A DNA stretch of 64,000 nt from an uncultured Planctomycetaceae bacterium (GCA_963776055.1 CAVZLD010000005.1:121685-185684); one strand, 5' to 3'. Shown: positions 1 to 49,011, counted from the first letter of the stretch. Numbers and translations are program-made. The notes: generated by a model from the letters alone, not told the origin.

Positions 1-692
<692 letters not shown>

Positions 693-6621: not shown

Positions 6622-9600
6622 ATGTCTCGTCCACGTCCTTTGGGTCCCTTCGTGATCCTGGTTCTGTTCCTCAGTTTCGCCGGTCCGGCCGCCGCACGAC
6701 CGGCAGCGACGGATGCCGCGCCGGACTTCACCCGGTTGACCAATCCCGAGTTGGCTGACCAGTTGCAGCTGACCGATGAACAGCGAGCGCAAATTGCCCA
6801 GCTTCTACAGACACGCGCCGAGGCCCAAGCCAACCCGGACCAGGATCAGCGAGATCAGCAGCAGGCCGAAATTGACGCGCAGTTGGCCGAAGTCCTGACT
6901 GCCGAGCAGAAACAACAGTACAGTTCGCTCCCTGGTCAGTCCAAACTGGCCTTCAATTTCCGCGATCAGAGCTGGATCGATGTCCTCGATTGGTTTGCTC
7001 GCCAGGCGGGGCTATCGCTGGTCGTCAATCAACCGCCTCCTGGGACGTTTACCTACAGCGACACGAAATCATACTCCCCAACGGAAGCACTCGATCTGCT
7101 GAATGGTGTCCTATCGACTCGCAACTTTGCGCTCGATTCGGCGCGATCGAATGCTGATTTGTGCCGACCTTTCGCAAGCATTTCCCGACGCGCTCATACC
7201 GGAAGTGCGTCTGGAAGACCTGGACAAGTACGGCGACTTCGAACTGGTGAAGGTTTCGTTTGCGCTGGGCGGTCGCTCGGTGCAGGCGGTGTCGGACGAA
7301 ATCAAGCCGCTCCTGGAACCGAACGGACGGTCGACGATCTTTCCCCAATCCAAGCGTGTCCTGGTCACGGCCCGCGCGGGCAAGATGCGAGCGGTCAGTG
7401 TGGTGATTGCTTCTATTCCCGAACCACGACGGAAGGAGCCCCAAAAACCTAAACCGCCGGCGCCGAAGCCGGAATTACAGGTCTATCCGGTCGAGTCGCT
7501 CGACTTGAAAGCCACGGCGGAAATGTTGGATGATCTCGTCGGAGGTGCCAAGATCACAGTCGACGAACAGGCCGGGCAATTGAACGTGTTTGCCGTGCCA
7601 AGCCAGCAGGGGGCGATCAAGAAATACCTGGATGCCATGAAGGAACCCGCTTCGGCTGAACGCCAAGCCAAGTTGGAAGTCTATCTGCTCGAGCGTGAAT
7701 TAACGGGGGAGTTCATCGAGCAATTGAAGGCTCTGGCGCCTGGCGCCACAATGGCCGGCGACAGCGACCCCGCGCGTCTGGCGGTTTTCGCTCGGCCTGA
7801 TCAACATCGGAAGCTCCAGGAATTGCTTGGTCCGCCGTCCGGAATGGACCTGGAGATGGGGGATCGTCGCGCCGATGTCTACACGCTGAAGCACGCCGAA
7901 CCGGATGAATTGGCGGACGTCATCGAGAACCTGCTTCCGAAAGCGGAGGTCGCCACGGACGAAGCGGGAGGTCGCATGGTGGTCGTCGCCACGTCCGCCC
8001 AGCACGCCATCTTGGCGCAAATGATCCAACAGTTCGACTCGCCGCCCGCTGCCGACCGGGAATTGAAATTCTATCCGTTGCCGGACCGCGCCCGCAGCGA
8101 TCTCCAAGACATCCTGCAATCGTTCGTACCCAAGGCGGAGATCCAGATTCAGACCGATCCGCGTCGACTGATGGTCATTGCCAGCCCCGAAGAACAGACC
8201 ACGGTCGACCGGTTGCTGACGCAACTTGGCTCGACTTCGAACGATGTGCCGCAAAAACGGCTGCGCGTCTACACGGTCACAGCGGAGCAGCGCAAGCAAT
8301 TCGTCGCCACGTACAAACAGATCGCTCCCGAGCTGGAGACGATTACGATTCAGGAGACATCGCGCCCCGACGAGTTGCAGATCGTCGCCGACGAAGCCCA
8401 GCAACAGCGAATCGCCGAATGGCTGCAAGAGTTGAAGGAGCAGTTTCCCGACGCGCCGCGAAAGCTGAAATTCTACGACCTGCCCGCCTCCCTGCGTGCC
8501 CGCTTCTTGTCACTGAAGGACCAACTTGCTCCGGAGCTTCGATCGCTGCAGGTGGTCGACGGCGACCGACCGGATCGCCTGGGAGTGGTCGCATCCGATG
8601 TCGAACATGCGCAAGTCGCGGATCTACTGCAGCAACTGCAGACCGAACTGCCGGTCGAGGAGTCCCAGCTGCAGGTCTATCCCACCAGCCCCTCGCAGCG
8701 CAAGCGGTTCCTGGCGATCTTGCCTTCTCTGCAAAACGAACTACCGGGAATTCGCCTGATCGAGACGTCGGTACCCACCGAGCTGACGATCTGGGCGCGC
8801 CCCGCCCAGCATCAACGCCTGGCGGAACTACTGAATTCGCTTGCCGACGGCGATAATACCGGCGCCCTGCAACTGGTTGCCTACCCGGTCGAACAGGGAG
8901 ATCCGGAGAGCATCCTGGCGGTGCTGCAGGAGTTGTATCCAGACACGAAGATCGTCGCCGACTCGGAAACCAGTCGCGTGCTGGTCTGGACAACGCCCAC
9001 CGAGCACGAACAGATCGAACAGGCGGTCCAGCAGATGGATGCGCCAGCTGCGGCCGGCAAGAACAAGATGGTCTACTATCCCCTGGGGGAAGTTGATGTG
9101 CGCGATGTTCTGCGAATGTTCGAGGAACTCGTGCCCAACATGTCCCTGGTCGCCGACCGGGATTCGAATTCGATCATTGCCTGGGGTTCCGAGAAGGACC
9201 ACGCCTTGTTGAAGAAAACCGCGGAAGACTTCCGCCAACAGGCCGAGGTCGGTGGACGACAGATCGTCAGCTACCCGATCGGAAGTCGGAGCACACGCGA
9301 AGTCGAGTTCATCCTGCGGGCCGTGGTGCCCGGCGTTCCCATGGGAGGCGATGAGAAACGCCGCGCTGTCATCGCGTGGGCTACGCCGGAGGAGCACAAA
9401 CGCATTCAGCAGACGATGCTGGAATTGACCGGTGGCGCAGAGTCCGAGAGGGGCGAGCTACGCGTCTACACGATTACGCGAATGTCGGCCGACGATGTTG
9501 TCGAAGCGCTCGAACAGATCGCGCCGGCCGCACAGATTAGTATTGCCTCAGATCAGAGTCAGATTCTCGTCTGGGCCGATTCGGAAACACACAAGCAGAT

Positions 9601-12600
9601 CCGAGCGACCCTCGACAAGATCGAGGCGGGCGATCCGGATGCGCAGAAGGGCACCATCCGAATTTACCAGGGCAGGCCCGAAGTGCTGGCGCAGATCAAG
9701 GGGCTGCTTCCTCAGGTAGCCCCCGAGGCGGAATTGATGCCCGACACGCAGACCGACCGGTTGACGGTCTGGGCACAGCCGCAGGAACACACCGCAATCG
9801 AAACGCAGCTGAAGTCTCTCGAAGACCAACTCCAGCCAATCGATCTGCAACTGGCCACGTACCCGCTCCAGCGCGCGTCGACGGCGGAAGCGACGCAGTT
9901 ACTTCAATCGGTGATTCCCGATCTGCAGTTTCTTACTTCCGCGGATCCGCAACAACTGTTGATTCGAGCACGCCCGGAAGACCACACGCTGATTCAGAAG
10001 ACGCTGGCCGAGCTGGATCAGGTCTTGTCGCAACCTCAGGCGACCGAAGTCAAGGTGTACTCGCTCGGGAGCATGGCCCCCGACACGTTGACCCCCCTGC
10101 TCGACCCGAAACTGACCGCTGGCATGTCGGTGATTCCCGACGCAGAACGCAAGGCTTTGGTCGTCCGAGGAACGGCCGAGCAGCACATCGAACTCAAGGC
10201 GGCGATCGATGAAATCCTCCTGCGACTGGCGGATGCGCCCGAAAAAGTCTCCAAGGTCTATCGGTTTCAACACGCCGATCCCGCGGCGACAAGACTGACT
10301 CTGTTGCAGTTGCTACCCACCAGTGCCTTCGTCGTCGACCTGGCCGCACGAAGCCTGACCGCCAACGCTCTGCCGGCCGATCACGAACGCATCGAACAGA
10401 TCATCCAACAACTCGACCAACCACCGAATGATAACCGCGAGACGGTTGTCTATCGTTTGGAACAGGGCGACGTGTATGCTTTACTCACAACGCTGCGGTC
10501 GCTGCTGCCGGAGGCGGTCTTTGGCGTCGATCGCTCCAGCCGCACGCTGGTCGCCACGGCCTCCCCCACCGATCAGCAACGCATTCGGCAGGTCGTCCAA
10601 CAGATGGATGATCCCGAATTCCGCGCGTTGGAGACCAGAGTGTACCGTGTCCAAATGCGGCGGCTGTACAGCCTGCGGTATTCGTTGAATGCCATTTCGC
10701 CCGACGCCATCATTGTCACCGACGAGGACAACGGCCTGCTCGTCGCCACCGCCAGCCCCGCCGATCACGAGAAGATCCAGGCGATTATCAAGCAGCTGAA
10801 TGATTCTCAGGCGGAGACACGAGAAACGAAAGTCTATCACTTCCAGTATGCCGACCCCGCCTCGGTCCGGCTGACGCTCTTGCAGATGTTGCCCCGGAGT
10901 CTCCTATCGATCGACCCGGCCACCAAGAGCCTGATCGCCAACGCATCACCGGAAGACCAGCTACGGATCGATGAAATGGTGCAGCAGTTGGACCAACCCG
11001 CCGATGACGGGCGTGAGACGGCCGTCTACCGGCTGCAGGAAGGGGACGTCTATGCCCTGCTGAATAGCTTGCAGTCACTGCTGCCCAATGTCGCCTTCGG
11101 CGTCGACCGGTCCAGCCGCACGCTGATTGCCACCGCCACCCCGGAGGAACAAGAACGCATCAGCAAGGTTGTCGAGGAAATGGATGACCCCGAGTTCAGC
11201 GCAATGGAGACCAAAGTCTATCGAGTGGAAATGGGAGAACTCTATAGCCTGCGGTACGCGTTGCGATCGCTGTCGCGCGAAGCGATCATCGTGACCGACG
11301 AAGAAAACGGTTTGTTAGTCGCGACCGCCAGCCCCGCCGATCAGAAGAAGATCTCCGCCGTCATCACGCAATTGAACGATCCGGAGGCCAACCAGCGGGA
11401 AACCAAAGTGTATCGTCTGCAAGCCGGCGAACTCTACGGCGTCCGGCAGGCACTCCGATCGATGTTGCCCCGAGCCAGTATCTCCGTCGATGATGAAAAT
11501 CGCGCGATCCTCGTAACGGCGTCCACCGAGGATCACGCCCGCATCAAACAGGTTTTGGATGAACTCGATTCGCCCGATGCCGACACCCGTCAGACGAAGG
11601 TCTATCGGTTGAAGTACGGTGACGTCTATGCGGCGCAGTCGGCTTTGGAAGCCCTGCTGCCCCAGGCAGTCATCGCCGCCGACAGAAGCACCCGCGCACT
11701 GGTGGCAACCGCCTCCACAGCAGATCACCTGCGGATCGATACAGCGCTTCAAGAATTGGATGCGGCGCGGGAAGACCCCACGGAAACACGAGTCTACAAC
11801 TTTGAACTGGGCGATGTCGAAGCGGCAGAAACGGTGTTGGAGGAACTACTGCCGGAGGCAGTGTTCGCCGTCGATACCGACAACAAGTTGCTCGTCGCCA
11901 CCGCCTCCCCCAGCGAACATGAACGAATCCAGGCCACCGTCAAGGAACTGGATCGGCCCAATGCCGAGCAACCCTCCCTGCAGGCATACCGTATCGTGAA
12001 GGCGAACTTTCAGTCAGTCTACGAAGCACTCGACGACGTGTTCCGCCGGCAGTACGAAGTACGGATTTCCGCAGACCCGGAAAACCAGACGATCCTTGTC
12101 CAAGCGCCGCCGGAAGAACACCGCACCATCGCGCAGCTCGTTTCCCAAATGGAAAATGCCTCCGACGAGAGTCTCCGACGACGACTCGTCGTCTACCCGC
12201 TCAAGGGAGAGGCCGACGATTCGGTGCTAAACGCTCTCCAGGATCTGTTCACCAACCAGCAACCGGAGGTCGAACTGTCACTCGATACAACGGCCGACCA
12301 GGTCCTGGCCGTCGCCACCGAAAAACAACATGAATTGATCCGGGGCGCGGTGGAACAGATGCAGGGCGGCGAAACGCTGATGGAGGTCTTCCCCTTGCAG
12401 ACTATGGATCCCTTTTTCGCCGAACTGGCGATCGACCGGCTCTACACGGATGACAATGATCCGCCCGTCGCCAATGGGGACAGTGAAACCCAGCAGCTGA
12501 TCGTCCGCGGAACGAGAAAACAGCTCGACGAAATCAAACAACTCCTGTCCAAAATGGGCGAACTGCCCACGACGGAGCTGGGGGGTTCCGATGGCGTGCG

Positions 12601-13948
12601 CGTGATTCCTTTCCGCGGCGATGTGCGCGAAGCGGTCGAGAAGATCCAAATGGTCTGGCCGCGGTTGCGCGGCAATCCGCTGCGCGTGATCCAGCCCACT
12701 CGCGTTCTCACACCGCTCCAGCCACAGCCGTCCGACGCAACACCCGCGGCCGAGCCTGCCCCGGCCCCGCCAACTTCGACGGCGCCGACCGACGCGGCCC
12801 CTGGGACTCCCCCACCGACGTCCCCTGCTCCCGCCGAGCAGGCCGAACAACCGACAGCAGACCGTGCCGCACATTTCGACCGGTTCCTCACGATTCCGGT
12901 CGCGGCGGTCGATCCCCCCACCGATGCCAACGCACCGGTGGAGAGCGACGGTATCCTTCCGCAGCGTGTGGAGTCGGATTCTTCCCGTACTGCCGATCTA
13001 CACGACGGGGAACCGGTACGCGAGAAAAAAGAAGCGAACGCGACCAACACGAACGAATCGGTTGGCAACAGATCGGCTGATCCCTCGGCCAAACCCTCGC
13101 CCCAAGAACAGGATGCTCCTGCCGCCAGCGTGATCCCGCCGGCGGCAGCCACACCCGCCGCCGCGGAACCGGCTGCGGAACCGGCCGTTGTACTCGTCCC
13201 CGGTCAGGATTCCATCACCGTGATGTCCGATGACCCGGAGGCCTTGATGCAGGTGGAAACGCTCCTGCGGACCCTCGCCCGCCAGAGCTCCATGGAGTCG
13301 GGCGGAGGCAATTTCGCCGTGTACGCGCTCACCAACGCAGGCGCAGGAGAAGTCGCCCAGACGCTCGATCAACTGTTCGAGAAAATGCCGTTCACCGCGC
13401 GGGTCCTTCAGCCGCGTGAGCATCGTGCCGGACGAACGACTCAACGCCCTGATCGTCCACGGTCGGCCCAACGATCGCGCCTGATCGAAGAACTCCTGCA
13501 GGTGCTCGACTCCGCCAACGTGCCCAATCTGCTGGTCAGCGGACCACCGACGATCGTTCCACTGCAACATACGGACGCCCAACGCATCGTGGAGATTCTG
13601 CAGGGAATCTATGCCAGCCAACTCCGGTCAGGAGGAACGGGACCCCGGATTTCCATCCCGCGCGGTGTGCCGTCGGAAGTTGCCTCGATGTTGAAACAAA
13701 TGAACGCCGCTGCGGCCGGCCCACTGTTAACCCTGGAGGTCGACGAAGTGACCAACTCCATCGTCATCATGGCCCCAAAGCTCCTCGCCGAAGAGGTCTC
13801 GCAGCTCGTCCATCAACTCGACCAAAAAGCCCAAGCCGAAGATACAAGAAGAATTGAAATCGTCCCACTCAAATCCGCCAAAGCGGAAGAACTCGAGGAT
13901 GCACTCCAGGACCTTCTGCGAAACCGGAGTCGGGGTCGAGGAAGATGA
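6622..13948 (+). CDS. Giant exported secretin N-domain repeat protein (~2,440 aa): signal peptide, Q-rich coiled segment, secretin N0/STN-like domain, ~30 tandem secretin_N (N1-like) modules, PT/PA-rich linker, 3 more secretin_N modules; no secretin pore domain. One apparent frameshift near 7135 and a compensating double shift near 13390-13480
   Basis: The signal peptide is MSRPRPLGPFVILVLFLSFAGPAAA. The N0-like region is FNFRDQSWIDVLDWFARQAGLSLVVNQ..TEALDLLNGVL. Removing one base at ~7135 joins NFAL to VRRDRMLICADLS, the usual continuation. The repeated module reads ETxVYRLxxGDxYxLxxxLxxLLPxAxxxVDxxSRTLVATASPxxHxRIxxVVxQLD and matches the secretin_N profile (beta strand, helix, ..NSLIV.., ..I..LD). 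The last module is RIEIVPLKSAKAEELEDALQDLL. A +1 reading at 13400-13470 gives SIVPDERLNALIVHGRPNDRA, which is the canonical secretin_N motif. Confidence 0.8.
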
Positions 13949-14511: not shown

Positions 14512-16212
14512 ATGAGCGCAACACTTGTTGTTCAACACGTGCCGAGCACGGTGGTGGTCGCGCCAACCGACCTGAGACAGATTCGCCGGATTCTGGCCGA
14601 CGGTGGAACGCTGGACGATGTCGCCGCCGAACTGCGACTGGCTTCGGCCGAAGTCGCGTTGGGCGCGATCGCTAGTTCGCTGGGGCTGCAGGTAGCCGAC
14701 TTGGCGCGTTGCGAGGTCGATTCCGAAGTGTTGGCCGAATTCCCGCCCAAGTTGGTGCACCGGTATCGCGTGCTGCCCCTGGGACAGGCGGACGACGCCT
14801 TGCTGATTCTGACGAGTGACCCGTTCGACCTGCATGCGATGGACGCGGTCAGCGCAGCGATCGGTCAGCGCGTGACACCGATCCTGGCGCTGCCGGACGA
14901 TCTGGCCAAGCTGATCAAGACACACTTGGGAGTCGGTGCGGAAACGATTGACGATCTGCTGGCGCAATCCGGCGACGACGCGATCGAAATGCTGGAGGAG
15001 GTCCAGTTCGACAACAGCGAAGCCGCCGAAATGGCGCAACAGGCTTCGGTCGTTCGACTGGTCAACGAAATCCTCTCGGAAGCAGTCGTGGCACAAGCCA
15101 GCGACATCCACATCGAATCTCAGGAATCGGGGATCAAGATTCGCTATCGAATTGACGGTGTGCTGCAGCGTCAGCCAACGCCACCGGAGATGAACCGTTT
15201 CCACGCAGCCATCGTCAGTCGTCTGAAGATCATGTCGAAGATGAACATCGCCGAGAAGCGAGTTCCTCAAGACGGTCGCATCAAGCTGCACGTGGCGGGT
15301 CGCGAGGTGGATATCCGCGTCTCGATGATTCCGATGCTACACGGCGAAGGGATTGTGATGCGAGTCTTGGACAAGTCTCGCATTCAGTTCTCGTTGCAGG
15401 ACATCGGGATGCCGCAGGAAGTGTATGACTCGTTTCAGCGGCTGATCCGGTTGCCGCACGGCATTCTGCTGGTGACCGGGCCGACCGGCTCGGGGAAGAC
15501 CACCACGCTCTACAGCGCACTGAACGAAATCAAAAGCGAAGACACGAAGATCATCACCACGGAAGATCCGATCGAGTATCAGTTGGAAGGGATCAATCAG
15601 ATCCAAGTCCATTCGAAAGTCGGACTGACGTTTGCCACAAGTCTGCGCAGCATTCTGCGACACGATCCCGATGTGGTCCTGGTTGGTGAAATCCGCGACT
15701 TGGAAACGGCCGAGAATGCGACGCAGGCCTCGCTGACCGGGCACCTCGTTTTCAGCACGCTGCACACGAACGATTCGTCCGGCGCCTTCATGCGGCTGTG
15801 TGACATGGGTGTGGAGCCATTTCTGGTCAGCAGTACAGTGGAGGGCGTGATGGCGCAGCGATTGGTTCGCACGTTGTGTCGGCACTGCCGGCAGGCGTAC
15901 GTGCCGCGTGCGGAGGATTTACCCGAGGATTTCCCCTACGAGCAGATGCGGGATCAGCGCCAGAACCTGTACCGCGCCGTCGGTTGTCGCACATGCCGTG
16001 GCACTGGATACGCGGGACGAGTGGGGATTTACGAGTTGCTGGTGTCGACGGACGAGGTTCGCCACTTGGCCAGCGAACGAGCGCCCTCGAATATCGTCAA
16101 GCGGGCGGCGATGGCCGCCGGTATGCGCACCTTACGATCGGACGGATGGTCCAAGGCTTGCCGCGGGCTGACCACCGTCGATGAAGTGCTCCGCGTGACG
16201 AAGGCCGACTGA
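14512..16212 (+). CDS. gspE: Type II secretion / type IV pilus assembly ATPase GspE/PilB family
   Basis: A T2SS-E N-domain is present. The Walker A is LVTGPTGSGKTTTL, and the Asp and His boxes are present (ITTEDPIEY, LVGEIRD, STLHTND). The C-terminal tetracysteine is CRHC...CRTCRGTGY. Confidence 0.95.
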   Translation: MSATLVVQHVPSTVVVAPTDLRQIRRILADGGTLDDVAAELRLASAEVALGAIASSLGLQVADLARCEVDSEVLAEFPPKLVHRYRVLPLGQADDALLILTSDPFDLHAMDAVSAAIGQRVTPILALPDDLAKLIKTHLGVGAETIDDLLAQSGDDAIEMLEEVQFDNSEAAEMAQQASVVRLVNEILSEAVVAQASDIHIESQESGIKIRYRIDGVLQRQPTPPEMNRFHAAIVSRLKIMSKMNIAEKRVPQDGRIKLHVAGREVDIRVSMIPMLHGEGIVMRVLDKSRIQFSLQDIGMPQEVYDSFQRLIRLPHGILLVTGPTGSGKTTTLYSALNEIKSEDTKIITTEDPIEYQLEGINQIQVHSKVGLTFATSLRSILRHDPDVVLVGEIRDLETAENATQASLTGHLVFSTLHTNDSSGAFMRLCDMGVEPFLVSSTVEGVMAQRLVRTLCRHCRQAYVPRAEDLPEDFPYEQMRDQRQNLYRAVGCRTCRGTGYAGRVGIYELLVSTDEVRHLASERAPSNIVKRAAMAAGMRTLRSDGWSKACRGLTTVDEVLRVTKAD

Positions 16213-16227
16213 CCGCGGCAACGCACC

Positions 16228-17451
16228 ATGCCCGAATTCGCCTATACAGCTCGAGGACTGGACGGACAAAATGTGACCGGCCAGCTAACGGCGACCAATC
16301 GCCGAGAGGCACTGGCGACTCTTTCACAGCAGTCTCTCTTCCCGCTGAAACTCGAAGACCAGGCCGCTCACGGCATGGCCAGTCGTTGGGCGCAGCGCGG
16401 TACGCGGAAGCGGGTTCGGCCCGAACAGGTGGCCGCCTGTCTGCGCCAACTATCCGATCTATTGCAGAACGGCGTTCCGCTTTTGGATTCGTTGAATCTG
16501 CTGGCCGAGGAATCTCCCAATCCGGCATTGCAGGAAGTGATGGGGGATGTCCGCGACCAAGTCGCTGAAGGAGCGACGCTCGAGGATGCGGTCGCCCGAC
16601 ATCCACGCGTCTTTTCTGATCTGACGGTCAGCATGATCCGAGCGGGTTCCGAGGGTGCCTTCTTGGAAGAGGCGCTGACGCGGATCGCCGGTTTCCTGGA
16701 ATTGCAGGAGGAGCTGAAGAGCAAGGTCAAAGGCGCCATGGCCTATCCAACGTTTCTGATGATTGGCGGCATCTTGGTGACGGTCGTACTAATCATCTTT
16801 TTCGTGCCCAAGTTCGAAGGCTTGTTTGAACGCCTGGAACGACAAGGCAACGGATTACCGCTCGCGACCGTGTTGCTGTTGGGAATCAGTGACTTTCTGA
16901 CGCGGTACGGCCTACTGCTGCTGCTCGGCCTGGTGGGGCTCGTGTTGGGACTCCGCCATCTACTTCAGACACCCGCCGGAATCCGCTTCACGGACTACTG
17001 GAAGTTGCAACTGCCGATTGCCGGCAAGATCTTCCACAACTCGGCCGTCTCCCGATTCTGCCGCGTCCTGGGTACGCTGCTGCACAACGGAGTGCCGATC
17101 CTCAAAGCCCTGGATATCAGTAGCGGCTCGGTCGGAAACCAGTTGCTGGCCGAAGCGATCCAGAATTCCGCCGAGAACATTTCCTCGGGGCAAACACTCT
17201 CGGCGCCACTGGCCGACTGCGGCCTGATCCCGCCCTCCACCATGGCGATGATCCGCGTGGCGGAGGAATCCAATTCCTTAGACACTGTTCTGGTCAACAT
17301 CGCCGACGGAATCGACAAGCAGGTCAAGCGCCAGTTGACGATGATGGTTCGTTTCGTGGAACCGGTCATGCTCGTGATGATCGGCGTCGCGGTTCTGTTC
17401 GTTCTGGTCGCGCTGTTGTTGCCGGTCTTCGATATGAGTGCGGCGATTTGA
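16228..17451 (+). CDS. gspF: Type II secretion system inner-membrane platform protein GspF/PilC family
   Basis: It has two GspF repeats. Typical sequences are LLQNGVPLLDSL and LHNGVPILKAL, and there are three TM segments. It is 407 aa. Confidence 0.95.
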   Translation: MPEFAYTARGLDGQNVTGQLTATNRREALATLSQQSLFPLKLEDQAAHGMASRWAQRGTRKRVRPEQVAACLRQLSDLLQNGVPLLDSLNLLAEESPNPALQEVMGDVRDQVAEGATLEDAVARHPRVFSDLTVSMIRAGSEGAFLEEALTRIAGFLELQEELKSKVKGAMAYPTFLMIGGILVTVVLIIFFVPKFEGLFERLERQGNGLPLATVLLLGISDFLTRYGLLLLLGLVGLVLGLRHLLQTPAGIRFTDYWKLQLPIAGKIFHNSAVSRFCRVLGTLLHNGVPILKALDISSGSVGNQLLAEAIQNSAENISSGQTLSAPLADCGLIPPSTMAMIRVAEESNSLDTVLVNIADGIDKQVKRQLTMMVRFVEPVMLVMIGVAVLFVLVALLLPVFDMSAAI

Positions 17452-17478
17452 TTCAATTACCAAAGAGGGGAAAGAAAC

Positions 17479-17988
17479 ATGCCTTGCAAGAAAACTCGCC
17501 ATCGAAGTCGAGCGGGCTTCACGCTGATCGAAATCATGATCGTGCTGGCAATTCTCGTGTTGCTGGTCGCGATGGTCGGGCCTCGACTGCTGCGCACGCA
17601 GGAGCAGGCCGACCTGAAGATCACCGTCACGCAGATCGAAAACCTGGAGCAGGCACTCGATTTTTACAAGGTGGACACACGCAGCTACCCGACGACGGAA
17701 GAAGGCTTGAAAGCTTTGTTGCAGAAACCGACGGACGAGACCCGCGGGAAGAACTGGGCCGGGCCCTACCTGGAAGAAGATGCTCTGCCCGCCGACCCCT
17801 GGGGCAATCCGTTCCAATACGAGTTTCCGCCGACCAAGGGTGGTTCAACCGACAAACCGAACATCTGGTCGTTCGGTCCCGATGGTCAGGATGCCACCGA
17901 AGATGACATCATCAACTGGACAGAGGGCAGCAACGATGGCTCGGGCAGCGAGATCTCCGAGAGCGACAGCATGGAATTCGCACCGTAA
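17479..17988 (+). CDS. gspG: Major pseudopilin GspG
   Basis: The prepilin leader plus GFTLIEIMIVLAIL is present. The GspG core is YPTTEEGLKALLQKP..WAGPYL..PADPWGNPFQYEFP. An acidic Ser-rich C-terminal tail is present. Confidence 0.9.
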   Translation: MPCKKTRHRSRAGFTLIEIMIVLAILVLLVAMVGPRLLRTQEQADLKITVTQIENLEQALDFYKVDTRSYPTTEEGLKALLQKPTDETRGKNWAGPYLEEDALPADPWGNPFQYEFPPTKGGSTDKPNIWSFGPDGQDATEDDIINWTEGSNDGSGSEISESDSMEFAP

Positions 17989-18821
17989 CCACGCTTACAC
18001 CCTCCTGGAACTGGTGATCGTGCTTTCGGTGATTGGGCTGCTGGCCGGCCTGAGTTGGCCGGTGCTGATGCGCCCTTGGTCCAAGAGCCAAGTGCAGCAG
18101 GCCGCACAGGACCTCAGTCGGGAATTGATGCGCGCCCGACTGAACGCCATCGAAAAGGGACAGATCTTTCGGCTCCGTTGGCGACCGGGAACCGGCGAAT
18201 TCGAGCTCCGTCGCTGGCGACCGCCCTCCCCCGAGTTCGTTCTGCTGGGCGATGAATCCGAGCCGGCGCTTTCCCCCCCGACACGAATCGCCTGCCCACC
18301 CTGCCGCGAGTGATCCGTTGACGGCAGAACCCGTGACGGAACGCGGCGCCGAAGACGGGACGGACGCATTCGCCAGCGAAGACACCACGACATCCACATC
18401 GCCCTCCTTGCGAGAGTTGCCCAACGGGGTCCTATTCTGGGACCCGACGCAGCCAACCGAGCCCCTGGGCGCCTCGCTGTTGCGTGAGCCGACGCTGGCG
18501 AGAGAAATGGGGCAAGATGATCCGAGCCTGGCCTTTTTGCCGGCCGAGGAATCCACCAGCGACGATTTGCCCACCAACAGCCGTTCCTCGGTTCCCTGGT
18601 CGCCTTCGATTTGGTTCTATCCGGACGGTCGAACATCCAACGCTCGGTGGACTCTGATCAGTGAAGACGGTTACCAGATCGACGTGACTCTCCGCGGCTG
18701 GGTCGGTTCGGTCCAAGTCGGTCCGGTGCAGCTGCAACCGATGTTGGAAAGCGAGCTCGACGGGGTGGAGTCCGACAACACGGCCGTGGCCGCGGACCGC
18801 CGCCCCGCGATCGACCTATGA
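17936..18821 (+). CDS. Minor pseudopilin, GspH-like (two overlapping frames, 17936-18313 and 18252-18821, probably one gene with a frameshift near 18250-18310)
   Basis: The N-terminal frame has the prepilin-type helix AYTLLELVIVLSVIGLLAGLSWPVL. The downstream frame has the GspH-like C-terminus WFYPDGRTSNARWTLISEDGYQIDVTLRGWVG. The putative ATG at 17936 overlaps the gspG 3' end. Confidence 0.5.
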
Positions 18822-19256
18822 GGCGTGGACTGTCACTGCTGGAGGTCATCATTGCGCTGGCGATTCTCGCTGGCAGCGCCGCGGTACTGGCCCAGTTGAT
18901 GAGTCTCGGACGGCGTCATGCTTTGCGCAGCCGACGTCAGTGAAGCGCAATCCCTGTGTCAGAATCTGCTGAATGAGCTGCTCGCCGGAACGCTGCCCTG
19001 GGAGATGGTCGAATCGGAGCCGATTGATCCATTCTCTCCTTGGGAGTATTCCGTGCAGATCGAGCCGCTCGGTGACGGACGATTGTCCTCCGTTTCGATT
19101 GTCGTCACGCAGTTATTGGAAGAACAGATCGAAGTCGCCGATACCGAGACCCCCGCTCCCCCCCAGTTCCGGTTGACTCGCTGGGTCTACCATCCCGATG
19201 GTCCGCGCGATCTGGCGGGCGAGCCAGACTTCGGCGGTGCCTCCTTGTTTGAATAA
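18818..19256 (+). CDS. Minor pseudopilin, GspI-like (frameshift near 18905-18940)
   Basis: The ATG at 18818 overlaps the upstream stop (ATGA). The N-terminus MRRGLSLLEVIIALAILAGSAAVLAQL is a prepilin N-terminus. A premature TGA at 18939-18941 is followed, in another frame, by the GspI-like body EAQSLCQNLLNELLAGTLPWE...WEYSVQIEPLGDG... Confidence 0.6.
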
Positions 19257-19263
19257 CCTCGCC

Positions 19264-20700
19264 ATGGATTCGATCGTAAAACGAAATGGGTGGTTACATG
19301 CCTCGCTGGTGGGCCTGCGCGCGCGATGCGAGCTGGGCCCACCCTACCGCGGTGGCCCTCTCCCACCGGATTCGGCAAGCCCGATCGATCCGCCCACGAT
19401 CCACGCCGTTCATCCCCCCATCACCGATCCAGAACAAACCATCCCCCCAGCGCGGCTCCATCCTGTCGGATGGCGCAATCCTGTAGGGTGGGCTCAGCGA
19501 AGCGCAAGCCCACCATCCCAACACCCCGCAACCCCTCCGCCGTCCGGCTTCACTTTGCTGGAAATCATCATTGCGATGGTGCTGATGGCCGTTTTGATGA
19601 TGGCCACCTGGAGCTTGCTGGGCATCTACCGTGGCCAATTCGAGCGCAACCAACAGCGAGCGGAACGCTCCCAAATCATTCGTTCGCTGCGACAACGGCT
19701 GGAAGCGGATGTTCGGTCGTGCGTAACGGCGCCATCGAGCTCACCGCCAACCGATCCCGCGTCCACCGACGAGGACCCGGCCGCCGCCACGGATGACTCG
19801 GAACAGGCCGCGACGAATCGGAGGAACGCTAGCCTGGAACCACCATTCGGCGGCGACGCAACCGAGCCCATCCTGAGCGAGCCATTCCTCGGCGAGTCGA
19901 TGAGCGCGGTCGGGCCGGACCTTGCTGCGGAGTTGACCGGCGAACTGTGGCTCCAGCCGGCGATTGGACTGCGCGGCAACGCACGGGGTCTGGTCCTGGA
20001 TCGACTGGTGCCCCTGGAGCATCCTCGTGCGCTGATCGAGGGCACCGCCGTGGACCTGCAAACACCGATTCCCGATGTGGTGCGTCGCGTGATCTATGTC
20101 TTCACGGACGAGGCAACTTCCCTTCGGCAAGGCCGCCCGGCCGGGCTGCTGCGGTGCGAGTGGACGGAGCAGGAGATGCAGGTGCTTCGTTCCGCCGCTG
20201 GTGGAGGGGACCTGTTTGCGCTGCTGGAAACACTGGTACCGGACTGGCCGGTCGTCGAGGCGACCGACGGGATCTCGGACTGGACGGAGCCAGCCGTCGC
20301 GGAACGCGACCGTGACCTGGGACGCACTTCGTCGACCGAACTGGAGCAACTGACCGCGGAAATCACTCAGCGCGTCGACTTGCTGCCGGAGATGACCGCC
20401 TTTCGGCTGCGCTACTACGGCGGCGGCGGATGGCAGGATCGCTGGGACAGCCGGCAACAAAATGCGCTTCCGGTCGCGATCGAATTGCGGTTCGATGTGA
20501 AACGACTCGAGGCGAAAGCGGACGAAACGGCCGAAATCGATCCCATCACGGGGCTACCCATCGAGGAGTCGGCCGCAGAATTGCTGAACGAACCTCCCGA
20601 TGACGAACTGACGGAACCGATCGACCCGCGTCAGATGTCCGTCCAGACCAAAATGCTGATGGCGCAAGAACAAGACCAGCGGGTCGTCCTGTTTTTCCAT
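19264..20700 (+). CDS. Minor pseudopilin, GspJ-like (start and 3' end uncertain)
   Basis: The prepilin motif PPPSGFTLLEIIIAMVLMAVLM is at ~19540. The GspJ-like C-terminus reads AFRLRYYGGGGWQDRWDS..LPVAIELRFDV. The nearest in-frame ATG (19264) would give an implausible ~107-aa leader. No stop occurs until 21282, which overlaps the next gene, so a frameshift or non-ATG start is likely. Confidence 0.55.
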
Positions 20701-20800
20701 GCGCAACAAACGAATCCGGCTTGCGCCAATCACCGGATCCGAACGAAGCGATGGACCCAATGGAAGTGGGACCGACGGAGCCGATCGAGGAGAGTGCCCC

Positions 20801-22525
20801 ATGATTCTACCTCGGTCGGATCGTCACCTGGAACGCCGTGGAGTCGTCCTGTTCGTAATCACAATCGTGATCGCACTCGTCTCACTGTCCGCCTACGGCT
20901 TCGCCGTGCTGATGCAAACGGAATACCGCGCAACGCAACTGCGAGGAGATCAGATCCAAACGGAACAAGTAGCGGCGTCCGGCGTGGACTACCTGCGAGC
21001 GATTCTGTCGCATTCACGTTCTCAACGAACGGAATGGGGAGGATGGCAGGACAACGCTCCTTTGTTTCGCGATCAGATCGTCGATTTCGATCTTCAGCTC
21101 GCCCGCACCGGTCGGTTCAGCATCGTCTCACCCTACCATGCCGCGGAAGATGCACCACCGCAGTATCAGTTCGGGGTAGAAGACACCTCCAGCAAGTTGT
21201 CGCTGGAAGCGTTGTTACGATGGGACCAACAGACTCCCGGCAGTGCCCGCCAGGCACTGCTGCAATTACCGGGAATGGATGACTCCCTCGCCGATGCGTT
21301 ACTGGACTGGATCGATCCGGATGATGAGGAACGGGAATTCGGTGCTGAATCGGAATATTATCTCGAGCTGGAACCTTCTCGGCAGCCGGCCAACACACTA
21401 CCAACGATCCTGGATCAATTGCTGGCCGTTCGCGGATTCACATCCGGGCAGTTGCTCGGACTGGAGCCTTACCAGTCCCAGGAAACAGTCGATTCCGACG
21501 GCACCGATACCGGAACTCGAATACCGATCCCTTCGCCGCCGGTCACTTCCCCAGCCGACAGCTTGGGAACAACTTCGTGGAGCGGTGCTAGTGCCACAGG
21601 CATGTCACAAGTACCGTGGTCCCGCTATCTGACGGTTTACAGTGCCGAGCGAAACGAAACGTGGGAAGGGGAGCCCCGGATCAACTTGAACTCGGCGGAC
21701 CTGAGTGAACTGCACCAACAGTTGACCGAGTTGTTTGACGAGTCGATCGCGAACTTCGTCATTGCGCTGCGCCGCTACGGACCCACCTCCTCGACGACGG
21801 GAAATCTGCAGACCGGCCCCGCACCCCTGGTTGCGTTCCAAGAACAAGCGAGCTTCACGTTCACTTCACCGCTCGACATCATCGACGCCTACGTCGCGAT
21901 CCCCAACGAGCCGCGGCCAGACGCATCCGATGATTCTTCCGAGCCGCAAACCACGACTTACGCCAGTCCTTTTTCAACGCAGCAAGGTTCACTGCGCGAG
22001 GAGCTGGTCGCCTTCTGCGATGGAACAACCACCAGCAGCGATGAGCGTTTTTTCGGAAGAATCAACATCCAACAAGCTCCGCGGGAAGTCTTATTGGGAA
22101 TTCCGGGCATCTCGGCGGAGACCGTTGACCAGCTGTTGTCATCCCGCGAGACGGGTAGCCGGGACACGGAGAGCCAGATCCATCCCGTGTGGCTGCTCGT
22201 TGAAGGGATTGTCGACTTGCCAACGATGAAGCAGTTGTTGCCCTGGCTGAACACGGGAGGCGACGTAATTCGCGCCGAAATCATCGCCTACTACGAGCAC
22301 GACTCGCCATGGACGCGGCAGGAAACAATGCTGGACGGTACCCGCAAGGGAACTCCGGCGATATACTATAGAGACCTCCGCCGCATGGGACGCGGTTTCC
22401 GCTGGGAGCAACTGGCGCGGGAATCAAGTTCGCCCGATTCGGCGACGTCCCCCCCACCCACCGAGGATCTCCCAGGTCCATACTCGATCAGCCAACCAAC
22501 TTCCGAATCGACTCCGTTCCCATAA
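20801..22525 (+). CDS. GspK-like minor pseudopilin / T2SS protein K
   Basis: The N-terminus MILPRSDRHLERRGVVLFVITIVIALVSLSAYGFA is a GspK-type N-terminus. The GspK middle domain reads TSSKLSLEALLRWDQ..LLQLPGMDDSLADALLDWIDPDDE..GAESEYYLELEP. Confidence 0.7.
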   Translation: MILPRSDRHLERRGVVLFVITIVIALVSLSAYGFAVLMQTEYRATQLRGDQIQTEQVAASGVDYLRAILSHSRSQRTEWGGWQDNAPLFRDQIVDFDLQLARTGRFSIVSPYHAAEDAPPQYQFGVEDTSSKLSLEALLRWDQQTPGSARQALLQLPGMDDSLADALLDWIDPDDEEREFGAESEYYLELEPSRQPANTLPTILDQLLAVRGFTSGQLLGLEPYQSQETVDSDGTDTGTRIPIPSPPVTSPADSLGTTSWSGASATGMSQVPWSRYLTVYSAERNETWEGEPRINLNSADLSELHQQLTELFDESIANFVIALRRYGPTSSTTGNLQTGPAPLVAFQEQASFTFTSPLDIIDAYVAIPNEPRPDASDDSSEPQTTTYASPFSTQQGSLREELVAFCDGTTTSSDERFFGRINIQQAPREVLLGIPGISAETVDQLLSSRETGSRDTESQIHPVWLLVEGIVDLPTMKQLLPWLNTGGDVIRAEIIAYYEHDSPWTRQETMLDGTRKGTPAIYYRDLRRMGRGFRWEQLARESSSPDSATSPPPTEDLPGPYSISQPTSESTPFP

Positions 22526-22658
22526 TTGCTGAGCACCAACCACGAAATCTTCCTACCGAAACGGGTGGTCGCCACCGACGGTGGCCGACGCCATCCCGAT
22601 CCACGCAAACTCTCCCGCCAATCCAAGCGAACGTGCCTACCGTTCCGACTGAGGGGTT

Positions 22659-24158
22659 ATGCTCCGCCTGAAACCAAGTCATTCGACCGTCGTCGCCTGT
22701 TCCTGGCATCAACACCGCCTGCTGATCCTGGTAGCCAAGGTGCGTGGTCGGGAGATCGAACTGGTGGACGCCCTCTCGGTCCCGCTCGATCAAAACGCGA
22801 CACCGGAGCAGATCGGAGAACGACTTGCCCAGGAGATGGGCGACCGACAGATCAAGCATTTCGACCTGCTAATCGGCCTGCCCCGCTCGCGTGTCGAGAT
22901 GTTGAGCCTGTCGCTACCTCCCGCAAGTGACGCGGAGTTGCCCGAATTGGTCCAGAACGAGGTTCTGCGGCAACTGACCGACTTGCCGGAGGATGCAGTC
23001 GTCGATTTCTATCAGAGCCAGGGCGATTCCGAAACATTACGGCGCGTCGAGGCAGCCGTACTGCGACCCGAAACACTCGGACAAGTACAGACCGTATGTG
23101 AGGCAGCCGGCCACACCGCCCGGCAAATGGTCTTGCGACCAATGGCGATCGCTTCGCTGTTTTCGCGGCTCGCCGGCCATGCCCACTCCAAGGCACTCCT
23201 GCTGACCGTGATGGACTGTGACGCAGACATGTCGCTGTTCTCCCACGGACAAGTCATCTTCAGCCGAACCGTTCGATTGATGGATGACGAAACGAGTGAC
23301 TTGGATTCGAGTCGGATGTCCGACGAAATCCGCCGGACGTTAGCTGTCGCCCCGCTGGAATCGCAAGATGACGACGATATCGGACATGTCTACATGTTCG
23401 ATGACTTGAAACGCTCCAACGAACTGATCGAGCAACTTGCCGACGACCTGCAATTGCCGGTTTCTCTGTTGGATCCCTTGGTGGGACTTCGCGTTCGCAA
23501 AGAAGTTGACCTGCAGCAGATTCACCGTTTTCCGGCGCTGATCGGCATGATCCGCGACTACGCCGAAGAAAACGCGGCAATCGATTTTGCACATCCGAAA
23601 GAACCGCCGCCGCCACCGCGCTACGGACGGAAGATTGCGTTCTATTCGACCGCCGCCGCCGTCGCCCTCCTGTCCGTTTTCTTCCACTTTCGGTCACAAT
23701 TGCACACGACCGTAGAAACGGCCCGCGACCTGGCCCAAGAGGTCAAGCAGAAGGAAGACGAACTCAAACGCTGGCGCCAACGTACTGCCGTCGTCGATGC
23801 CGTTGCGCGTTGGGAGACCAGGGAGATCCACTGGTTGGATGAACTGCGATTCCTGTCCGAACGCTTTCCGTCGGCTGATCAAGCGGTCGTTCAGCGCGTG
23901 ACCATGGCTCCCACCAGCGCCGGCACCGGAGTGATTTCGATGAGCGTTCGAGTCAGCACGCCCGAAGCAATCAGCCGACTGGAAACGAGCCTTCGCGACG
24001 ACTATCACAAGGTGAGCAGTAAACGGATTTCGCAATCAGAAGGCGCACAAGACTTTCCTTACCAGTTTGAAACCAGCGTCGCCGTACGACCCAAACCGGT
24101 CGAAGAACAGCTGCCGCAAGAATCGACGACCGAGCCGCTCGTGGCGAAGCAACAATAG
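22659..24158 (+). CDS. GspL-like assembly-platform protein (cytoplasmic actin-like/PilM-type domain, single TM, periplasmic domain)
   Basis: It is 499 aa. The TM segment is RKIAFYSTAAAVALLSVFFHF at residue ~330. The domain order matches GspL (PilM plus PilN-like). Confidence 0.65.
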   Translation: MLRLKPSHSTVVACSWHQHRLLILVAKVRGREIELVDALSVPLDQNATPEQIGERLAQEMGDRQIKHFDLLIGLPRSRVEMLSLSLPPASDAELPELVQNEVLRQLTDLPEDAVVDFYQSQGDSETLRRVEAAVLRPETLGQVQTVCEAAGHTARQMVLRPMAIASLFSRLAGHAHSKALLLTVMDCDADMSLFSHGQVIFSRTVRLMDDETSDLDSSRMSDEIRRTLAVAPLESQDDDDIGHVYMFDDLKRSNELIEQLADDLQLPVSLLDPLVGLRVRKEVDLQQIHRFPALIGMIRDYAEENAAIDFAHPKEPPPPPRYGRKIAFYSTAAAVALLSVFFHFRSQLHTTVETARDLAQEVKQKEDELKRWRQRTAVVDAVARWETREIHWLDELRFLSERFPSADQAVVQRVTMAPTSAGTGVISMSVRVSTPEAISRLETSLRDDYHKVSSKRISQSEGAQDFPYQFETSVAVRPKPVEEQLPQESTTEPLVAKQQ

Positions 24159-24232
24159 AGCCGACGCACGCGAAAGAACAACCGCCCCCTATTGCCTGAT
24201 TCGTTTCCCGTCACGCTCAAAACGAAACGACG

Positions 24233-30420: not shown

Positions 30421-30421
30421 C

Positions 30422-48953: not shown

Positions 48954-49011
48954 ACCTCTTCCGCGCGGAGGAGGAGAGACCCTCACCAACCGAAGCGCGT
49001 GGCCCAGGAGA

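What the first reader, a model, noticed from the sequence alone, without database searches (positions are those of the whole stretch)
6622..13948. Giant exported protein made of ~30 tandem secretin N-domains and no pore domain
The protein has a signal peptide and a secretin N0/STN-like domain (FNFRDQSWIDVLDWFARQAGLSLVVNQ...EALDLLNGVL...RRDRMLICADLS). About 30 consecutive ~64-aa modules follow, each fitting the secretin_N (N1/N2/N3) pattern: VYRL strand, LxxLLP helix, DxxSRTLVATASP strand, HxRIxxVVxQLD helix. The protein ends after a final module (RIEIVPLKSAKAEELEDALQDLL) with no C-terminal secretin beta-barrel domain. Canonical GspD has only three such N-domains, and each forms a ~3-4 nm periplasmic ring. 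A multimer of this protein could form a ring stack on the order of 100 nm long, based on ring height alone. I know of no characterised protein with this architecture. It sits at the head of a complete T2SS-like gene set, so it is most likely a structural part of that machine. It could be a periplasm-spanning conduit or spacer in an organism with an enlarged periplasm, a planctomycete-like trait.
Basis: partly seen in the sequence, partly recalled or inferred. Interest (0 to 1): 0.9.

Follow-up and report, generated by a model that had tools for sequence, protein, structure and literature searches.

The report
Pore-less giant secretin-like periplasmic protein
This planctomycete gene encodes a roughly 2,440-residue exported protein with every periplasmic part of a secretion-channel (secretin) subunit, enlarged to about 30 ring-type domains, but no membrane pore; a second gene in the same secretion-system cluster supplies the pore, so the channel looks split across two proteins.

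Summary
Window 6622-13948 (+) encodes a ~2,441-aa acidic protein. In order it has a signal peptide, two LTxxQ helices, a secretin N0-N1 pair and 26 contiguous ~64-66-aa Secretin_N modules. One further module is split by a ~170-aa Pro/Ala-rich insert. The protein ends in a GspD N2/N3-like cassette, a half module and an Arg-rich tail. It has no pore domain. The only PF00263 pore domain in the 64 kb lies in a separate ~1,220-aa secretin at 25933-29590, at the far end of the same gspE-F-G-H-I-J-K-L-like cluster.

That secretin and its 120 closest homologues show no detectable N0. Phycisphaerales carry one fused 3,592-aa secretin (N0 + array + pore) in the same cluster slot. I therefore read the giant protein as the N0-bearing periplasmic half of a two-gene secretin, an extender between the inner-membrane platform and the pore. 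Stacked rings are inferred, not shown.

The family is common in Planctomycetia: 81 complete cluster representatives with 13-46 modules, conserved ends and mostly conserved synteny. Databases name it only by domain, and I found no paper on it.

The reading frame is broken by three indels. Similar indels break other genes in the window, so assembly error is more likely than gene decay.

Verdict: new variant of a known kind; interest 0.68.

The parts
6622..6696 (+). Signal peptide (MSRPRPLGPFVILVLFLSFAGPAAA), or possibly an uncleaved signal anchor
   Evidence: This is the only hydrophobic segment of the protein (KD>1.6 only at aa 6-29). All family members start with a comparable h-region.
6727..6930 (+). 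Two LTxxQ helices, a Spy/CpxP-like helical hairpin
   Evidence: AF2 predicts helices with pLDDT>90. The family profile weakly hits the periplasmic chaperone Spy (E 0.006-0.008). The region is conserved across the family.
6943..7174 (+). Secretin N0 domain, interrupted by the +1 frameshift at base 7135
   Evidence: AF2 gives a beta-alpha-beta-beta-alpha-beta-beta fold. Foldseek hits include ETEC GspD N0 (4jtm, TMt 0.83, rmsd 1.8) and PilQ N0 (4ar0, rmsd 2.2). The domain is homologous to the N0 of pore-bearing giant secretins. The frameshift is shown.
7238..7417 (+). N1-type domain
   Evidence: [quoted passage not shown] The family profile aligns to XcpQ N1 residues 115-169. PulD 6hcg N0-N1 superposes at rmsd 3.2 over 156 columns.
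7475..12559 (+). Central array of 26 contiguous Secretin_N modules with a 64-66 aa period. Modules 15-23 are young (35-70% identical). A three-module block is duplicated: 10256-10831 and 10832-11407.
   Evidence: Pfam PF03958, own-HMM module map, module identity matrix, coordinates.
12593..13279 (+). One Secretin_N module split by a ~170-aa Pro/Ala/Ser/Thr-rich low-complexity insert (12677-13186) between its beta1-alpha1 and beta2-beta3-alpha2 halves
   Evidence: The half-module sequences are. AF2 shows strand-strand-helix at the start of the C-terminal cassette.
13310..13822 (+). GspD N2/N3-like pair. The second domain carries a conserved insertion (IPxGVSxEVAxxLxQINAAxxGPLLTL). The region contains the compensating indel pair near 13405 and 13478.
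   Evidence: The family profile aligns to E. coli GspD 5wq7 residues 151-323 (E 3.9e-19). AF2 plus Foldseek gives secretin N domains only. The cassette is conserved and terminal in all family members scored, and in all 81 complete ones.
13847..13945 (+). Terminal half module (beta1-alpha1, RRIEIVPLKSAKAEELEDALQDLL) plus an Arg-rich tail (RNRSRGRGR). The stop codon is at 13946-13948.
   Evidence: This ending is conserved at the C-terminus across the family. AF2 gives only a helix here.
14512..25293 (+). T2SS-like genes downstream: gspE 14512-16212, gspF 16228-17448, gspG ~17497-17964, gspH/I-like (frameshifted) ~17966-19196, gspJ-like ~19546-20499, gspK 20699-22525, PilM/GspL-like 22659-24158, and an unassigned 408-aa ORF 24067-25293
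   Evidence: Pfam hits to T2SSE, T2SSF, T2SSJ and T2SSK. tblastn with orthologous clusters.
25933..29590 (+). Partner pore-forming secretin (~1,220 aa, two frameshifts near 26570 and 27015). It has a signal peptide, one giant-type module, ~200 unassigned aa, 5-6 Secretin_N domains, the PF00263 pore domain and an acidic Pro-rich tail. No N0 is detectable.
   Evidence: The 120 closest homologues all carry PF03958+PF00263 and none carries an N0/STN family.

Best explanation
The gene encodes the periplasmic, pore-less half of a two-gene ('bipartite') secretin of a planctomycetal T2SS-like machine.

Proposed mechanism, with each step marked as shown or inferred:
1. The protein is exported by the Sec pathway. 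The signal peptide is shown by sequence; export itself is inferred.
2. Its N0-N1 end docks on the inner-membrane assembly platform, as N0 does in GspD. This is inferred from homology.
3. Its ~27 Secretin_N modules form a long extension through the enlarged periplasm. The extension is most likely an oligomeric stack of rings around the pseudopilus path. At the roughly 3-3.5 nm per N-domain ring of canonical secretins it would be about 100 nm long. This is inferred.
4. Its C-terminal GspD N2/N3-like cassette, half module and Arg-rich tail dock beneath the N0-less pore-forming secretin encoded at the other end of the cluster. This is inferred.
5. The number of central modules sets the span.

Shown here: the domain composition, the absence of a pore, the conserved end cassettes, the conserved linkage to gspE-F-G, the co-occurring N0-less secretin, and the existence of fused versions in other lineages.
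For: Domain identity:
- Pfam Secretin_N scores E=3.5e-153, and no PF00263 is found.
- NCBIfam TIGR02517 (GspD) matches the giant protein only within model positions 93-333, the N-domain part.
- AF2 models of both ends (pLDDT 90.9 and 79.8) hit only secretin N0/N1/N2/N3 structures.
- The C-terminal cassette profile aligns to GspD 5wq7 residues 151-323, directly before the pore domain.

Complementarity with the partner secretin:
- The window holds a single pore domain, in the secretin at 25933-29590.
- Neither that secretin nor its Rhodopirellula orthologue gives an N0 signal with Pfam at E<=5 or with the family N0 profile.
- None of its 120 closest homologues carries an N0/STN Pfam family. Fused giant secretins such as P0103 do score for N0.

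Fused counterpart:
- Phycisphaerales P0116 (3,592 aa) combines N0-N1, an array and a pore. It occupies the slot after gspK and the PilM-like gene, where the window has its ordinary secretin.
- Of the best 145 giant-array representatives, 131 carry a pore domain. In those proteins the long N-domain array is attached to the pore and, as in all known secretins, must lie in the periplasm.

Linkage:
- The order giant gene then gspE-F-G and onward is seen in L001, L003, L004, L006-L009, L016 and L017.
- Giant protein and N0-less secretin share contigs in at least 9 genomes.

Extender architecture:
- 81 complete family representatives have conserved N- and C-terminal cassettes and 13-46 central modules. 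Length correlates with module count at r=0.98.
- Central modules turn over by tandem duplication while the ends stay orthologous.

Precedent: Thermus thermophilus PilQ uses six stacked N-domain rings to span most of a wide periplasm (PMC5745081). Planctomycetes have an enlarged periplasm (PMC5394234).
Against: - No oligomer was modelled or observed, so ring formation by this protein is untested.
- Module number varies 3.5-fold between species. Central modules lose positional orthology in distant orthologues. This fits a generic flexible extender, or even a surface fibre, as well as it fits a fixed trans-periplasmic tube.
- A ~170-aa disordered insert interrupts the array. That is awkward for a continuous rigid conduit.
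- In L011, L013 and L014 the gene is not adjacent to T2SS genes.
- The absence of N0 in the partner secretin rests on HMM negatives, not on a structure. Its ~200 unassigned N-terminal residues could hide a divergent domain.
- In this particular assembly the gene carries three indels.
- The role of the terminal half module and of the Arg-rich tail is unexplained.
Confidence: 0.5

Rival explanations
1. The protein is a flexible tether or ruler rather than a closed conduit. It stays monomeric or low-order, a beads-on-a-string chain of KH-like domains. It links the inner-membrane platform (through N0-N1) to the outer-membrane secretin or cell wall (through the C-terminal cassette and basic tail). 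It sets or tolerates the variable membrane spacing without enclosing a channel.
For: - The module count ranges from 13 to 46, and central modules turn over by duplication.
- A long disordered Pro/Ala-rich insert sits inside the array.
- Only the two ends are strongly conserved.
- The pTM of the C-terminal cassette model is low (0.42), so the modules are not rigidly packed in a monomer.
Against: Every structurally known homologue of these domains forms rings of 12-15 subunits (Foldseek hits; PMC5745081). Fused giant secretins place the same kind of array under an oligomeric pore, where the copies are held together at least at one end.
Confidence: 0.25
2. The protein is exported cargo or a surface structure. 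It would be a substrate of the neighbouring T2SS-like system, or a building block of an extracellular fibre or adhesin. The repeat array would serve as a stalk, as in giant adhesins.
For: - The protein has a Sec-type signal, a strongly acidic repetitive body and only one Cys.
- Its length polymorphism is typical of extender domains in surface proteins.
- Planctomycetes carry unexplained 12-nm fibres on crateriform structures (PMC5394234).
Against: - N0-N1 and N2/N3-like cassettes are known only as periplasmic parts of secretins and related envelope complexes.
- No adhesin, lectin or enzyme domain was found.
- The fused relatives anchor the C-terminal end of the array at the outer membrane and point the array inward.
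- The first position in the cluster and the conserved co-occurrence with an N0-less secretin suggest a machine part.
Confidence: 0.08
3. In this genome the gene is a decaying pseudogene. The frameshift at 7135 separates the signal peptide and half of N0 from the rest, so no functional protein is made.
For: There are three indels in 7.3 kb. The public annotation starts at an internal Met and gives 2,265 aa. The partner secretin, gspH and gspI are also frameshifted.
Against: - Indels also break the unrelated hypF, and probably the prepilin peptidase gene, elsewhere in the window. This points to assembly or base-calling error.
- Outside the indels the reading frame is open for 2,281 codons and the domains are well conserved. 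The end cassettes are 55-56% identical to those of the closest orthologues.
- The second and third indels compensate each other within 75 nt.
- The orthologous proteins retrieved from other assemblies include 81 complete single polypeptides with both end cassettes.
Confidence: 0.07
4. It is simply a very long conventional secretin whose pore domain was missed because of sequencing errors.
For: The assembly does contain indels. About 560 nt lie between the stop codon and gspE.
Against: - None of the three forward frames of 13700-14800 shows secretin-like sequence.
- A pore HMM run on the six-frame translation of the window hits only 26648-29587.
- All 81 complete orthologues end at the same half module plus basic tail.
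- None of the 102 closest homologue clusters carries PF00263.
Confidence: 0.01

Closest known systems
T2SS secretin GspD/PulD/XcpQ (periplasmic N0-N1-N2-N3 vestibule)
   Same: Both have a signal peptide, an N0 fold, N1-type domains and an N2/N3-like C-terminal pair with an N3-type insertion. Both are encoded with gspE/F/G/H/I/J/K.
   Different: This protein has no C-terminal double beta-barrel pore domain and no S-domain. It has about 30 N-type domains instead of three after N0. It also has an extra LTxxQ helical hairpin, a terminal half module and an Arg-rich tail. The pore is supplied by a second gene.
Thermus thermophilus PilQ (six stacked periplasmic rings N0-N5; PMC5745081)
   Same: In both cases extra beta-alpha-beta-beta-alpha N-domains are associated with a wide periplasm. 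The paper states that the six rings let the complex span most of that periplasm.
   Different: PilQ is a single 757-aa chain with its own pore and belongs to a type IV pilus and DNA-uptake machine. It has 6 rings, against about 30 here. Ring formation is demonstrated for PilQ and only inferred here.
Uncharacterised giant pore-bearing secretins of Phycisphaerae, Methylomirabilota and many metagenomic lineages (for example P0116 at 3,592 aa, P0103 at 3,846 aa, and others up to 5,532 aa)
   Same: Both have an N-terminal N0-N1 pair homologous to the one here (27-60 bits) and arrays of 20-47 Secretin_N modules. Both sit in the same kind of T2SS-like cluster.
   Different: Those proteins end in a PF00263 pore domain and sit at the tail of the cluster. 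Here the array and the pore are on two polypeptides, at the head and the tail of the cluster.
N0-domain proteins that lack a pore (DotD of the Dot/Icm T4SS, Xanthomonas VirB7, phage baseplate proteins)
   Same: They show that an N0 fold can be used outside a pore-forming chain. They appear as weak Foldseek hits (ranks 40-46).
   Different: They are small single-domain lipoproteins or baseplate parts. They have no Secretin_N array and no T2SS context.

Membership tests
Secretin superfamily (GspD/PulD/PilQ/InvG) | C-terminal secretin beta-barrel pore domain (Pfam PF00263) | tested here: not met
   There is no PF00263 hit in the corrected protein. The pore HMM on the six-frame window hits only 26648-29587. 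TIGR02517 matches only model positions 93-333 of 600. The 102 closest homologue clusters lack PF00263.
Secretin superfamily (GspD/PulD/PilQ/InvG) | N-terminal N0 domain | tested here: met
   The AF2 model has pLDDT 90.9. Foldseek hits include 4jtm (TMt 0.83, rmsd 1.8), 4ar0, 3ezj, 5mp2 and 6hcg. Pfam alone was sub-threshold at E 0.066.
Secretin superfamily (GspD/PulD/PilQ/InvG) | One or more Secretin_N (N1-N3) domains, PF03958 | tested here: met
   E=3.5e-153 with 17 stretches. The protein's own HMM finds 28 full or partial modules plus a terminal half-module match.
Secretin superfamily (GspD/PulD/PilQ/InvG) | Homo-oligomeric (12-15-mer) ring assembly | not testable with these tools
   Only single-chain predictions were available.
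Secretin superfamily (GspD/PulD/PilQ/InvG) | Encoded with type II secretion or type IV pilus machinery genes | tested here: met
   gspE, F, G, J and K and a PilM-like gene lie directly downstream. The same order is seen in nine related loci.
Planctomycetia pore-less Secretin_N-array family (RefSeq name 'secretin N-terminal domain-containing protein'; no curated NCBIfam model) | Conserved N-terminal cassette: LTxxQ helices plus N0 plus N1 | tested here: met
   The window cassette scores 160-296 bits against nearly all of the ~100 family members, always at their N-termini. Mean column identity of the alignment is 53%.
Planctomycetia pore-less Secretin_N-array family (RefSeq name 'secretin N-terminal domain-containing protein'; no curated NCBIfam model) | Conserved C-terminal cassette: N2/N3-like pair, half module and basic tail, with nothing after it | tested here: met
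   The cassette scores 100-290 bits and is collinear and terminal. 81 complete representatives have both cassettes.
Planctomycetia pore-less Secretin_N-array family (RefSeq name 'secretin N-terminal domain-containing protein'; no curated NCBIfam model) | Variable central array of ~64-aa modules | tested here: met
   There are 26 modules here. The family range is 13-46, median 23.
GspC (the T2SS connector between the inner-membrane platform and the secretin) | N-terminal TM anchor, HR domain, and a PDZ or coiled-coil domain | tested here: not met
   No GspC/HR or PDZ family appears in Pfam or NCBIfam. Fold hits are to secretin N domains, not to the HR domain.

The most novel reading that the evidence does not exclude
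The giant pore-less protein and the N0-less secretin together form a tube of roughly 50-150 nm. This tube would be the core of the planctomycetal crateriform 'press-stud' complexes. Those complexes connect the outer and cytoplasmic membranes, carry fibres implicated in macromolecule uptake, and have an unknown protein composition (PMC5394234, PMC12673574). Module number would then encode the local membrane spacing.
Probability: 0.1. Interest if true: 0.9.

Novelty: new variant of a known kind. Interest (0 to 1): 0.68.

Why it matters
Secretins are treated as single-chain channels with three to six periplasmic rings. If the model is right, Planctomycetia would be the first case of a secretin split into two parts. 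One part is an N0-bearing periplasmic array of 13-46 ring-type domains. The other is a separate N0-less pore.

Related lineages would hold fused channels with 20-47 such domains. These are by far the longest predicted trans-periplasmic conduits. This gives a concrete, testable molecular candidate for how a T2SS-like machine bridges the enlarged planctomycetal periplasm, and possibly for the unassigned crateriform complexes.

It also flags a very large uncharacterised protein class: 1,756 clusters at 50% identity match the cassette profile at E<=1e-30.

Tried and rejected
- Hidden pore domain after the stop codon: three-frame reading of 13700-14800 and a pore HMM on the six-frame window found none.
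- Rfam, tRNA and promoter/terminator scans of the window and of the 563-nt giant-gspE spacer found nothing above chance.
- The genome-contig scan with the broad C-cassette alignment failed because no stretch was conserved enough. A narrower alignment gave 12 loci, none of them from the window's own genome.
- The look-up of encoding contigs could not retrieve the source contig of P0001.
- PF24471 (KH_DEAH11), listed for many homologues, is only a sub-threshold KH-like cross-hit and not an extra domain.
- I tested whether the terminal half module is completed by the N-terminus of the partner secretin. It is not: that secretin starts with a complete module.
- I tested whether the C-cassette maps uniquely to the pre-pore region of fused giant secretins. 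It does not: it matches several internal places about equally well.
- The whole-library profile search was dominated by summed repeat matches. It therefore measures giant-array proteins in general, not this subfamily.
- Literature searches for planctomycete T2SS, secretin or crateriform links found no paper on this protein. The P. limnophila envelope proteome lists 'GspD' and 'putative secretin' entries that I could not map to this family.
No multi-module or oligomer model was made.


Full report
**1. What is in the sequence**

ORF listing shows two overlapping + strand ORFs, 6622-7452 and 7103-13948, in different frames. Translating them shows that the first ends in '...EALDLLNGVLSTRNFAL'. 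The second continues with 'IRRDRMLICADLS...'. One extra base at 7135 separates the two.

Near the 3' end, ~25 residues read as nonsense (ARVLQPREHRAGRTTQRPDRPRSAQRS). The adjacent frame reads the canonical secretin N-domain strand pair RVSIVPDERLNALIVHGRPNDRA. An extra base near 13405 and a missing base near 13478 compensate each other.

The deposited public protein P0001 (2,265 aa, from a 619-kb contig) is 100% identical to the downstream ORF. The indels are therefore in the public assembly.

Other genes in the window are broken in the same way:
- gspH-like and gspI-like genes;
- the cluster's secretin, twice;
- hypF, split inside its Sua5 domain;
- probably the prepilin peptidase gene.

Orthologues in other assemblies are single polypeptides. 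I therefore treat the indels as probable assembly errors and worked with a corrected ~2,441-aa translation.

**2. Domain anatomy**

Pfam gives Secretin_N at E=3.5e-153 with 17 significant stretches. It gives no Secretin pore domain, and N0 only at E=0.066.

An HMM iterated on the protein's own modules maps the following:
- 25 contiguous modules at aa 287-1914, with a 64-66 aa period;
- one further module at 1921-1979;
- two modules at 2233-2297 and 2310-2401;
- a final half module.

A module whose two halves flank a ~170-aa Pro/Ala-rich insert accounts for the gap.

The only hydrophobic segment is aa 6-29, the signal peptide. The protein is strongly acidic (net charge -122) and has one Cys.

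An AF2 model of the N-terminal cassette, built on a 39-sequence alignment, has pLDDT 90.9. It shows a helical hairpin carrying two LTxxQ motifs, then a beta-alpha-beta-beta-alpha-beta-beta N0 fold and a beta-alpha-beta-beta-alpha N1 fold. All its Foldseek hits with E<=0.001 are secretin N0-N1 structures: XcpQ, GspD, PulD, InvG, EscC, MxiD and PilQ. ETEC GspD N0 (TMt 0.83) appears further down the list at E 0.029.

The C-terminal cassette model has pLDDT 79.8. It shows the second half of the split module, two complete modules (the second with a helical insertion), and a final helix. Its significant Foldseek hits are again secretin N-domain structures only. The family profile aligns to E. coli GspD residues 151-323, that is N2-N3 up to the start of the pore domain, at E=3.9e-19.

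NCBIfam's GspD model matches only positions 93-333 of 600.

A pore HMM searched against the six-frame translation of the whole window hits only 26648-29587. None of the three forward frames of 13700-14800 looks like secretin.

**3. Context**

Downstream lie gspE, gspF, gspG, gspH/I-like genes, a gspJ-like gene, gspK, a PilM/GspL-like gene and an unassigned ORF. Next comes a ~1,220-aa secretin with 5-6 Secretin_N domains and the PF00263 pore, followed by a conserved 366-aa ORF.

This secretin begins, after its signal peptide, with one module of the giant's type and ~200 unassigned residues. Neither it nor its Rhodopirellula orthologue gives any N0/STN signal with Pfam at E<=5 or with the family's own N0 profile. 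All 120 closest homologues carry PF03958+PF00263 and no N0 family.

**4. The family**

More than 100 clusters at 90% identity, all from Planctomycetaceae, Pirellulaceae, Pirellulales and related MAGs and isolates, share the architecture. None has PF00263.

Source names are generic: 'secretin N-terminal domain-containing protein', 'putative GSP protein' and 'Bacterial type II/III secretion system short domain protein'. No NCBIfam model covers the family.

The N-terminal cassette (160-296 bits) and the C-terminal cassette (100-290 bits) are conserved and terminal. The ending, a half module plus a basic tail, is nearly universal.

Among 81 complete representatives the central array has 13-46 modules. 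Lengths run from 1,433 to 3,774 aa and correlate with module count at r=0.98.

Within the window protein, modules 1-14 are old (15-30% identical to each other). Modules 15-23 are young (35-70%), with a three-module block duplicated at 66% identity.

Close orthologues keep one-to-one positional orthology for the old modules. Distant ones keep it only at the ends.

The order giant gene then gspE-F-G recurs in nine loci. It is absent in three. In Rhodopirellula sp. P2 the N0-less secretin lies divergently upstream.

**5. The fused counterpart**

A second class of proteins (P0103-P0120, 3,500-4,270 aa) has N0, very many Secretin_N domains (39 stretches in P0103) and a PF00263 pore. Their N0-N1 is homologous to the giant's N cassette at 27-60 bits. 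Their pore domains are 31-44% identical to that of the window's secretin.

In a Phycisphaerales genome such a protein sits after gspF-G-H-I-J-K and the PilM-like gene. That is the slot of the ordinary secretin in the window.

A whole-library profile search finds 1,756 clusters at 50% identity with E<=1e-30. Of the best 145 (2,149-5,532 aa, 18-47 matched stretches), 131 carry a pore domain. A few pore-less ones end in the same half module plus basic tail.

**6. Interpretation**

Three facts together are best explained by one secretin whose parts are distributed over two genes:
- the giant protein has N0 but no pore;
- the partner secretin has a pore but no detectable N0;
- other lineages fuse both parts in a single chain.

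The giant protein would be the periplasmic extension. Its N0-N1 would sit at the inner-membrane platform. Its N2/N3-like cassette would sit under the pore-forming partner. The variable array would set the span.

All solved homologues of these domains form 12-15-mer rings, and Thermus PilQ uses six such rings to cross a wide periplasm (PMC5745081). A stack of rings is therefore the most likely form. At about 3-3.5 nm per ring in canonical secretins (established structural knowledge, not computed here), the stack would be on the order of 100 nm. Planctomycetes have an enlarged periplasm (PMC5394234).

Ring formation, docking and location are inferred, not shown.

The main rival is a flexible, non-tubular tether. 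It is favoured by the 3.5-fold range in module number, by module turnover and by the disordered insert.

Surface export and strain-specific pseudogenisation are less likely. A missed pore domain is excluded.

**7. Novelty**

Full-text searches found no description of this protein or of a split secretin. A 2025 review of the phylum mentions neither secretins nor T2SS.

The domains are well known and the family is already in databases under a domain-based name. I therefore class it as a new variant of a known kind, not as categorically new.

The most novel reading not excluded is that this two-part channel is the core of the crateriform 'press-stud' complexes, whose composition is unknown. I put its probability at about 0.1.

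Noticed in passing
window ~17966-18767, ~18928, ~26570, ~27015, 45171-47605, 35225-37059: Frameshifting indels break several unrelated genes: the gspH-like and gspI-like genes, the secretin (twice), hypF (split inside its Sua5 domain), and probably the prepilin peptidase gene, where only A24_N was found. This suggests an error-prone assembly rather than decay of one gene.
   Followed up: partly
window 25933-29590 (+): The cluster's true secretin has no detectable N0. It starts with one module of the giant protein's type, has ~200 unassigned residues, and ends in an acidic Pro-rich tail after the pore domain. All 120 closest homologues likewise lack an N0/STN Pfam hit.
   Followed up: yes
proteins P0103-P0265; locus L018 10001-20779: Giant pore-bearing secretins with 20-47 N-domains (up to 5,532 aa) are abundant in public data. 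1,756 clusters at 50% identity match at E<=1e-30, and 131 of the best 145 carry a pore. They appear to be uncharacterised.
   Followed up: partly
window 6727-6930 (+): The giant protein starts with two LTxxQ helices. These give weak profile hits to the periplasmic chaperone Spy/CpxP (E ~0.006) and are conserved across the family.
   Followed up: partly
window 13847-13945 (+): Nearly every family member ends in half a Secretin_N module (beta1-alpha1) followed by an Arg-rich tail. No complementing partner was found.
   Followed up: partly
window 10256-10831 and 10832-11407 (+): There is a tandem duplication of a three-module block (66% protein identity) inside a younger sub-array (modules 15-23, exact 64-aa period). 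This shows ongoing expansion of the array.
   Followed up: yes
window 22659-24158 and 27044-29587 (+): The PilM-like gene and the secretin give weak NCBIfam hits to the Akkermansia Amuc_1101 and Amuc_1098 pilus-complex families. This hints that the cluster type is shared across the PVC superphylum.
   Followed up: no
window 29527-30627 (+); L003 5163-6206: A conserved ORF of ~350-366 aa with no Pfam or NCBIfam hit always follows the N0-less secretin. The two copies are 36% identical between the window and Rhodopirellula sp. P2. It could be a pilotin-like or accessory factor.
   Followed up: no
window 3-689, 41347-44229, 44498-50166, 60151-61602: The flanking genes are housekeeping genes: an ilvC fragment (ilvC also lies upstream of the orthologue in L001), uvrA, hypB/F/D/E hydrogenase maturation genes, and the der GTPase. 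No tRNA and no Rfam match was found in the 64 kb.
   Followed up: partly
loci L011, L013, L014: In one Pirellulaceae/Planctomycetaceae subgroup the giant gene is not followed by gspE. In L013 the neighbours are FG-GAP/ASPIC and cytochrome-like genes on the opposite strand.
   Followed up: partly
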